Shown: positions 36,586 to 37,172 of the stretch, in pieces
Layout of the letters: each line of letters begins with the position of its first letter
How positions within the stretch are numbered: position 1 is the stretch's first letter
Source: Eledone cirrhosa
Taxonomy: Eukaryota
Assembly: GCA_964016885.1 (NCBI GenBank)
Contig: OZ024740.1
Coordinates: 344,348,001-344,412,000 of the forward strand
Reading direction: 5' to 3'
Length of the DNA: 64,000 nucleotides
Notes under the pieces: generated by a model
What the model was told of the DNA's origin: nothing
Databases searched by the model: none
The model's input: the letters and a program-made list of their open reading frames with translations, nothing else
Translations under genes and position numbers: made by a program

Positions 36586-37172
36586 ATAAACGGAAAAAAT
36601 GAAACGAAACCTCATTTCCCACTCTTAGTACGGCTGTTACATAAACATAAGTATGTACACGCACATACATATATGCATACAGACGCACAGTAGAAATGTA
36701 TATATATATATACATACATGCAAACATATATATATGCACGTATGGATTCATCGAACATTTATTATAATGCTCGGTGTGTTTGTAAACAAACATCCCGCAT
36801 TAAGCCGTAGTGTCCAGCAACGATCGTTGCTCGTTTGTTCAACACTGACCAAGGAACGCTGTACTAGTTTCAAGCTTATTAGCTATCGTCAGCAACGTAT
36901 ACCTTCCTGCCAGATTGTTGAACGTATATACTTACCTTATGCATATTAACGGCTGAGAAGCCCAATCCGCATATCGAGTGGGTTAATCGGCGGGTGCACC
37001 GAAAACGATACGGCTTAATGCGGGATGTTTGTTTACAAACACACCGAGCATTATAATAAATGTTCGGTGAATTCCATAGTGCATATATATATGTGTGCAT
37101 GTATGCATATATATACATACATACTACTGTGCGTCTGTATGCATATATGTATGTGCGTGTACATACTTATGT
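36586..37172 (-). mobile_element. Single permuted monomer of the 438-bp HHR unit plus inverted partial copy
   Basis: 36586-37010 is homologous to the 18215-19078 unit. 37010-37172 is the reverse complement of ~36645-36810. Confidence 0.8.
36856..36898 (-). ncRNA. Minimal type I hammerhead ribozyme (copy 3)
   Basis: Identical to 18454-18496 despite diverged flanks. Confidence 0.8.

What the first reader, a model, noticed from the sequence alone, without database searches (positions are those of the whole stretch)
36586..37172. Same unit integrated as a circularly permuted monomer with an inverted extension
Seen: this copy starts at TAAACGGAAAAAATG and ends at CCGAAAACGATA, sequences contiguous inside the 18-kb tandem (…CCGAAAACGATAAACGGAAAAAAATG…). 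It is therefore one unit length but phased differently from the 18215 array. It is followed by a ~160-bp inverted copy. Inference: reverse transcription from a circular or multimeric RNA plus PLE-style strand switching.
Basis: partly seen in the sequence, partly recalled or inferred. Interest (0 to 1): 0.7.

Follow-up and report, generated by a model that had tools for sequence, protein, structure and literature searches.

The report
Hammerhead retrozyme with Penelope-type insertion footprint
This is a 438-base non-coding repeat carrying a predicted self-cleaving hammerhead RNA, sitting in a TA microsatellite as one full copy plus an inverted partial copy, a layout likely left by a Penelope-like retrotransposon enzyme, so it is a clear example of a known kind of mobile element rather than a new one.

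Summary
Observation confirmed. 36587-37010 is one unit (within about 3 nt) of the 438-bp repeat at 18217-19076, shifted about 60 nt in phase. It is followed by a 164-bp inverted copy (37009-37172), with (TA)n on both sides. The ends are not scattered. The inverted arm and the array end at the same site (A); the monomer ends about 60 nt further on (B). That is the Penelope-like 'inverted 5' copy plus one-sided tail' layout. Six other insertions in the window share it, and three copies of one family have near-identical tails (78, 80, 82 nt). The main arm crosses the ribozyme cut site, so the template was an uncut multimer or a ligated circle; the window cannot decide which. Best model: a PLE RT/GIY-YIG enzyme likely primed both strands of a cut (TA)n target at two fixed internal RNA sites, and the cDNAs joined head to head. 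New member of a known kind; interest 0.35.

The parts
36557..36588 (.). (TA)16 tract, left part of the target; joins the RNA-3' end of the main arm (site B) with a 3-nt ambiguity
36587..37010 (-). Main arm: one unit of the 438-nt retrozyme repeat; RNA sense is likely minus, 3' end at 36587, 5' stop at 37010
36587..36644 (-). 58-nt one-sided 'tail' between end sites B and A, absent from the inverted arm; can fold as a hairpin (array copy z -2.5, this copy z +0.4)
36648..36745 (-). Internal TA/TG-rich self-complementary stretch of the unit; its 20-nt (TA)n run (array copy) is not used as an end
36856..36898 (-). Type I hammerhead motif: intact core, helix I 6 bp, helix II 4 bp with tetraloop and U-U at its base, palindromic helix III (ACUAGU); predicted cut between 36862 and 36861
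   Evidence: activity untested
37009..37010 (.). 2-nt (TA) microhomology at the head-to-head junction of main and inverted arms
37009..37172 (+). Inverted 5'-truncated arm (reverse complement of 36809-36645); outer end at site A, the same phase as the array's end; no tail, no ribozyme
37168..37287 (.). (TA)60 tract, right part of the target
18217..19076 (-). Related array of 1.92 units with two identical hammerhead motifs (cuts at 18898 and 18460); 3' end at site A on (TA)n, 5' stop inside the tail hairpin loop
36012..36279 (-). Divergent relative (66-69% identity) with a degenerate hammerhead at the homologous place (one core change, no helix I, different helix II, different palindrome ACAUGU); its 5' end also lies near site B (about 285-295, weak alignment)

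Best explanation
This is a non-coding hammerhead-bearing repeat (a non-LTR retrozyme) that was likely copied into a (TA)n tract by the reverse transcriptase/GIY-YIG enzyme of a Penelope-like element, which would have primed both cut strands at two fixed internal RNA sites about 60 nt apart. Shown: the unit, the minus-strand hammerhead motif, (TA)n on both sides, two end sites A and B, the one-sided 58-nt tail, the 2-nt junction microhomology, a shared lineage of arm and monomer, and read-through of the ribozyme cut site. Inferred: (1) a tandem source copy is transcribed into more-than-unit RNA; (2) the enzyme nicks both strands of (TA)n; (3) one strand primes at B and copies one unit back to the previous B; (4) the other strand primes at A and stops after 164 nt; (5) the two cDNAs join head to head. 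The template is more likely an uncut multimer, where one 1.5-unit RNA gives both arms with the tail as the internal deletion, than a ligated circle. The stop at B may reflect the tail hairpin or a bound protein; this last step is weakly supported.
For: Hammerhead descriptor: 3 of 3 units hit, 6 hits in the window, against a mean of 0.06 in 50 shuffles. The motif is invariant, 0 of 43 columns variable versus 25 of 222 outside (Fisher p 0.009). The unit folds better than shuffles even without its microsatellite (z -3.7 and -3.9, 0 of 40). Ends: array and arm at 221-225, monomer at 281-284. The junctions have only 1-5 nt of TA match although a 20-nt (TA)n run lies inside the unit, which fits the non-homologous internal initiation shown in vitro for the anole PLE, where both strands are extended and the two start sites bound the tail (PMC11167929). 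The inverted 5'-truncated copy, the one-sided tail and (TA)n targets are described for PLEs (PMC8557442). Of 54 inter-(TA)n segments, 12 hold an inverted repeat scoring 50 or more; one is this locus; 6 of the other 11 have one arm flush with (TA)n and the other offset by 35, 60, 78, 80, 82 or 135 nt; 0 of 12 have both arms flush. Seven sites group arm plus monomer against the array and none conflicts. An RT (PF00078) plus GIY-YIG (PF01541) element at 62717-64000 shows such enzymes exist in this genome.
Against: Only two insertions (three arms) of this family are in the window. The three 3' ends alone are not significantly clustered (P about 0.06). The 58-nt tail is longer than the 30-40 bp described for PLEs. 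No homology was found between the unit and the 3' regions of either PLE-like ORF in the window (2 of 200 and 60 of 200 shuffles scored as high), so no partner is identified. The tail hairpin is significant only in the array copy (6 of 300 shuffles), not in the monomer (184 of 300) or in 7 of 7 tails of other families. The consensus fold has 0 of 80 pairs with a two-sided change, and the opposite strand also folds well (z about -3.1). Rfam gives no hammerhead match at gathering score in the window or at E up to 10 in 35900-37300. Five of the 11 other inverted repeats have neither arm flush, and that scan had no shuffle control. No expression or cleavage data.
Confidence: 0.75

Rival explanations
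1. Same PLE machinery, but the template was a ligated monomeric RNA circle: reverse transcriptase started at B, went round once and stopped on meeting its own cDNA start, while a second circle primed at A gave the inverted arm. This is a variant of the template step, not of the element's identity; the figure given is its share of the template question.
For: The monomer is one unit within about 3 nt (7/438 if uniform) and crosses the cut site. Animal retrozymes are expressed largely as circles, proposed as RT templates (PMC7229834). The unit folds compactly as a circle (z -8.8).
Against: The array runs 1.92 laps, so a lap is not a hard stop. Its stop (259) and that of the divergent relative (about 285-295) also lie in or beside the tail, which points to a local stop or RNA 5' end there. 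Linear folding is as favourable (z -7.8). For the anole PLE, unprocessed RNA was the dominant substrate in vitro. Two circles are needed where one multimer suffices.
Confidence: 0.3
2. One priming event only: the first cDNA folded back on itself at the 2-nt microhomology, or the polymerase switched strands, and copied its own strand; endonuclease resolution at A then left the tail.
For: 2-nt microhomology at the inner junction; arm and monomer share 7 diagnostic sites; four other insertions are near-perfect hairpins at the apex; endonuclease-mediated resolution was the explanation offered for tails in PMC8557442.
Against: Site A is used as a plain 3' end by the array, which has no inverted arm. 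The later in vitro work maps the tail ends to RT start sites. The fold-back would need to loop out 200 nt on 2 matching bases.
Confidence: 0.15
3. The inverted arm is a later DNA-level event (replication template switch between AT-rich tracts) or an assembly fold-back, and the repeat spreads as satellite DNA without an RNA step.
For: The region is full of (TA)n tracts; arm and monomer are each other's closest relatives.
Against: The arm skips 200 nt and does not continue into the flank. It keeps the array's state at 3 sites where the monomer differs. It ends at the array's end site. The same asymmetric layout recurs in 6 other insertions of 4 families that show no mutual match. The ribozyme is invariant.
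Confidence: 0.06
4. It is a miniature inverted-repeat DNA transposon with TA target duplication.
For: Inverted terminal segments and TA flanks.
Against: The inverted repeats are offset by 58 nt at one end, the array copy has none, the unit is tandem and carries a ribozyme motif, and 0 of 12 inverted repeats between (TA)n tracts are flush at both ends.
Confidence: 0.02

Closest known systems
Metazoan non-LTR retrozymes (Cervera and de la Pena 2020, PMC7229834; Li et al. 2026, bioRxiv 10.64898/2026.07.22.740005)
   Same: Non-coding tandem repeat in the 150-450 bp range, one type I hammerhead per unit, low GC, dimers and solo monomers, PLEs present in the same genome.
   Different: Expression, cleavage and circles are untested here. 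These papers do not describe inverted arms or tails in their main text ('inverted' 0 hits in PMC7229834; 'tail' and 'junction' 0 hits and 'inverted' only in a reference title in Li 2026). No sequence link to a pLTR was found here.
EN+ Penelope-like element insertions (Craig et al. 2021, PMC8557442)
   Same: Partial tandem, inverted 5'-truncated copy at the 5' end, tail at one end only, (TA)n target, hammerhead upstream of the 3' end.
   Different: No ORF; tail 58 nt instead of 30-40; no autonomous partner identified.
Poseidon PAc of the green anole (Frangieh et al. 2024, PMC11167929)
   Same: Two discrete internal end sites bounding a tail, AT-rich target, little homology between target and start site, hammerhead uncut in the inserted copy.
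   Different: PAc is autonomous and starts in an AC-rich stem-loop 111-118 nt into its ORF; here the sites lie 221-284 nt past the ribozyme cut in a non-coding unit, and the mechanism is inferred only.
L1 twin priming and dual priming (Meyer et al. 2010, PMC2837659)
   Same: Two oppositely oriented arms, an internal deletion (here the tail, if the RNA was a multimer), microhomology at the inner junction.
   Different: No poly(A), no recognisable target-site duplication, both priming sites recur at fixed phases, and the arms overlap in sequence.

Membership tests
Non-LTR retrozyme | Tandem repeat of about 150-450 bp with at least two consecutive units bearing a complete type I hammerhead | tested here: met
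   Array 18217-19076 has two complete motifs 438 nt apart; 36587-37010 is a solo unit of it
Non-LTR retrozyme | Type I hammerhead geometry: conserved core, helix I about 6 bp, helix II about 4 bp, short palindromic helix III | tested here: met
   Descriptor scan, palindrome duplex -4.8 kcal/mol, geometry as in PMC4209133. No Rfam hammerhead match
Non-LTR retrozyme | Non-coding, low GC, no LTR/PBS/PPT | tested here: inconclusive
   GC 0.30-0.37 in the two regions. No ORF of 150 aa or more lies within a unit; one microsatellite-driven frame overlaps the left 107 nt. PBS and PPT were not searched for
Non-LTR retrozyme | Transcribed, self-cleaves (as dimer) and forms circular RNA | not testable with these tools
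   No RNA data; only 1 of 9 predicted Xenopus dimers cleaved in vitro, so prediction is not proof
PLE-mobilised insertion | Inverted 5'-truncated copy adjacent to the 5' end | tested here: met
   37009-37172, at the RNA-5' end given the ribozyme polarity
PLE-mobilised insertion | Tail at one end only, 30-40 bp | tested here: inconclusive
   A one-sided tail is present but is 58 nt; other families in the window show 35-135 nt
PLE-mobilised insertion | AT-rich or (TA)n target | tested here: met
   3 of 3 RNA-3' ends join (TA)n
PLE-mobilised insertion | Homology to the pLTR of an autonomous PLE | tested here: inconclusive
   None to the two PLE-like 3' regions in the window; the rest of the genome is not available
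Autonomous Penelope-like element | Encodes RT and GIY-YIG endonuclease | tested here: not met
   The unit has no such ORF; not filed as autonomous
MITE (TA-targeting DNA transposon) | Terminal inverted repeats flush with both ends in all copies | tested here: not met
   58-nt offset; the array copy has no inverted arm
Circular-RNA-templated insertion | Ends scattered round the circle, or integer-lap lengths | tested here: inconclusive
   Ends clustered, not scattered; 1 of 2 main arms is an integer lap

The most novel reading that the evidence does not exclude
The monomer is the genomic footprint of one lap of reverse transcription round a ribozyme-made RNA circle, primed at a fixed internal site by a PLE enzyme. 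Retrozyme copies would then carry junction-level proof of both their PLE partner and their circular template, and counting exact integer-length copies genome-wide would settle the open circle-versus-multimer question.
Probability: 0.27. Interest if true: 0.65.

Novelty: new member of a known kind. Interest (0 to 1): 0.35.

Why it matters
That PLEs mobilise animal retrozymes is so far argued from shared ribozymes, co-occurrence and pLTR phylogeny, and the template (circle or uncut multimer) is open. This locus shows the PLE tail and inverted arm on a retrozyme copy, and it gives a cheap test: map A, B and 5' ends over all copies. I did not find that junction analysis in the main texts of the two retrozyme papers or in searches; subscription papers and supplements were not seen. 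Each component is known, so the surprise for a specialist is modest.

Tried and rejected
Rfam: 0 matches at gathering score in the window; 85 sub-threshold matches in 35900-37300, hairpin and microsatellite look-alikes, none a hammerhead. Folding the 53-nt ribozyme alone gives z -0.1, and the unconstrained dimer fold did not give the double-hammerhead shape; neither supports the motif. Local alignment of the unit to 9 other regions: only the divergent relative beat all 200 shuffles. A relaxed hammerhead scan found 3 inexact motifs against a shuffle mean of 1.04 (max 7), so the motif in the 3' region of the 62-64 kb PLE is not beyond chance on its own; that scan also missed the three plus-strand motifs. 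The idea that tails are generally hairpins failed in 7 of 7 other tails. The automatic alignment of eight ribozyme-like motifs misaligned the cores and was not used. A scan of bacterial and archaeal genomes for relatives of the window's PLE RT gave 86 pattern matches and 0 confirmed. The protein search gave 9 unnamed relatives, 4 with RT plus GIY-YIG, and no clade or host name. Lunse et al. 2017 was not held and is not relied on. PMC8490949 added nothing. Further copies of the family in viral and metagenome contig collections and in the host genome stayed unchecked.

Full report
Setting. The window is 36% GC and dense in (TA)n tracts, with SINE-like repeats and several broken retroelement ORFs. 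It looks like animal DNA; a resemblance to cephalopod repeats is recalled and comes from no call.

Observation. The monomer runs 36587-37010 and matches array 18614-19054 at 386 positions with 39 mismatches. The inverted copy is 37009-37172, the reverse complement of 36809-36645, with 6 mismatches. (TA)16 lies to the left and (TA)60 to the right. After masking microsatellites, BLAST finds no other full copy in the window, only a 66-69% identical relative at about 36012-36255, which beats 200 of 200 shuffles.

What the unit is. A descriptor scan found a type I hammerhead on the minus strand of all three units, with predicted cuts at 36862, 18898 and 18460. The window had 6 hits in all, against a mean of 0.06 in 50 dinucleotide shuffles. 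The geometry is helix I 6 bp, helix II 4 bp with a tetraloop, and a 2-bp helix III inside a palindrome, as described for metazoan hammerheads that work as dimers (PMC4209133). The 43 ribozyme columns are invariant, against 25 of 222 variable columns outside (Fisher p 0.009; longest invariant run 64, permutation p 0.017). The divergent relative has a different helix II and a different palindrome at the same place, but one core change and no helix I. Against this: Rfam has no hammerhead match, the isolated motif folds no better than shuffles, and the three-copy consensus fold has 0 of 80 pairs with a two-sided change. Cut to cut the unit is 438 nt. By the published criterion of two consecutive units with complete motifs, the array is a non-LTR retrozyme and the finding is a solo copy of it. 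Activity is untested.

The ends. Number the RNA from the ribozyme cut. The RNA-3' ends, all joined to (TA)n, are: array 221-225, inverted arm about 225 (site A), monomer 281-284 (site B). The RNA-5' ends are: monomer 282-284, array 259, inverted arm 55. Five of six ends lie in a 60-nt arc (P 0.009 under a uniform null, chosen after seeing the data; the ends are not independent). The three 3' ends alone give P about 0.06. No end is at the cut. The stretch between A and B (36587-36644) is a tail present on the main arm only. The junctions match (TA)n over only 1-5 nt, although the unit holds a 20-nt (TA)n run that is not used. The inner junction has a 2-nt microhomology. Over the arm, 7 sites group arm plus monomer against both array units, none conflicts, and 20 are private to one copy (about 4 of the arm's 7 come from one misaligned indel pair). 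The arm therefore belongs to the same event or source as the monomer.

The layout recurs. Of 54 segments of 60-1500 nt between (TA)n tracts, 12 hold an inverted repeat scoring 50 or more (my threshold, no shuffle control). One is this locus. Six of the other 11 have one arm flush with (TA)n and the other offset: 3559-4504 (35 nt), 26782-27126 (60), 36363-36556 (78), 38184-38373 (80), 7091-7293 (82), 22490-22994 (135). Five have neither arm flush, and none has both. The 78, 80 and 82 cases are one family, so its tail length is fixed across three insertions. The 26782 case has its own hammerhead in the same polarity towards (TA)n. An element at 62717-64000 (minus) encodes RT (PF00078, E 4e-10) and GIY-YIG (PF01541, E 2e-5) in separate frames and ends at (TA)n near 62020; 4 of its 9 database relatives carry both domains. 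It shares no detectable sequence with the unit, so it shows that the enzyme class is present, not that it is the partner.

Mechanism. PLE insertions often have an inverted 5'-truncated copy, a 30-40 bp tail at one end, and (TA)n targets (PMC8557442). The purified anole PLE protein cuts and extends both strands of AT-rich DNA, starts at two internal RNA sites that bound the tail without needing homology, and uses mainly uncleaved RNA (PMC11167929). Applied here by inference: one strand primed at B and copied one unit, the other primed at A and copied 164 nt, and the cDNAs joined head to head. One point follows directly from the sequence if the ribozyme assignment is right: both main arms cross the cut site, so the template was not a cut linear monomer. 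A single uncut RNA of about 1.5 units gives both arms, with the tail as the internal deletion, as in twin priming (PMC2837659). A circle needs two molecules but explains the exact one-unit length (7/438, post hoc). The array ran 1.92 units and stopped in the tail, and the divergent relative also stops near B, which favours a local stop or RNA 5' end over a lap limit. The tail can form a hairpin whose foot and loop match the two stops, but it is significant only in the array copy (6 of 300), not in the monomer (184 of 300) or in 7 other tails. I put the template at roughly 0.55 multimer, 0.3 circle, 0.15 other.

Comparison and verdict. It works like a non-autonomous PLE and meets the testable sequence criteria for a non-LTR retrozyme; it is not an autonomous PLE and not a MITE. 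Retrozyme monomers, circles and PLE dependence are in print. Tail and inversion analysis on retrozyme copies was not found in those main texts or in eight searches; supplements were not read and may bear on this. New member of a known kind, interest 0.35.

Papers seen. PMC11167929: parts 1-2 of 4. Li 2026 (10.64898/2026.07.22.740005): parts 1-3 of 5 and term passages. PMC4209133: parts 1-2 of 4. PMC7229834: passages and sections 14 and 17. PMC8557442, PMC2837659, PMC8969392, PMC8490949: passages only. Lunse 2017: title in a reference list only.

Noticed in passing
window 36363-36556, 38184-38373, 7091-7293, 6864-7000, 37501-37565: A second short family in (TA)n with fold-back 5' arms, tails of 78-82 nt and a 5' end at a similar phase in all copies; it holds a hammerhead-like half motif (GAAAC-stem-GUC) without a clear helix II.
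   Followed up: partly
window 26782-27126, 31577-31798, 49264-49490: A third family with plus-strand minimal hammerheads (cores at 26981, 31602, 49289), long helix II and self-complementary helix III, ending at (TA)n 88-158 nt past the cut; one copy has an inverted arm that duplicates part of the ribozyme.
   Followed up: partly
window 62020-64000 (minus): Penelope-like element with RT and C-terminal GIY-YIG in separate frames, cysteines upstream of the nuclease, a 700-nt 3' region with a decayed hammerhead-like motif near 62295 (not beyond chance alone), ending at (TA)n.
   Followed up: partly
window 44441-45900 (plus): Broken ORF pieces with a TKA/DKA-like motif and RT-like motifs resembling Naiad PLEs (recalled resemblance; no meaningful Pfam hit).
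   Followed up: partly
window 52188-60518: Two GC-rich L1/Tx1-like elements in inverted orientation, 70-80% identical, with endonuclease, RT and zf-RVT remnants (clade label recalled).
   Followed up: partly
window 35960-37290: Three different elements (divergent relative, second family, this monomer) are strung together by (TA)n tracts, as if one microsatellite had been targeted repeatedly.
   Followed up: no
window 3559-4504, 22490-22994, 24570-25095, 25799-26081, 31002-31273: Further long inverted repeats or near-perfect hairpins beside (TA)n or (GA)n tracts with no hammerhead hit; 3559-4504 has a 35-nt one-sided tail.
   Followed up: partly
window 329-524, 15057-15241, 19089-19275, 19410-19604, 32260-32442, 32967-33368, 49766-49941: A SINE-like family with many copies; one begins about 12 nt after the array's right end, and 133-328 is a 107-bp tandem of its 3' part.
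   Followed up: no
window 41257-43340 (minus): Two ORF fragments that look like a further broken non-LTR retrotransposon; no Pfam hit.
   Followed up: partly
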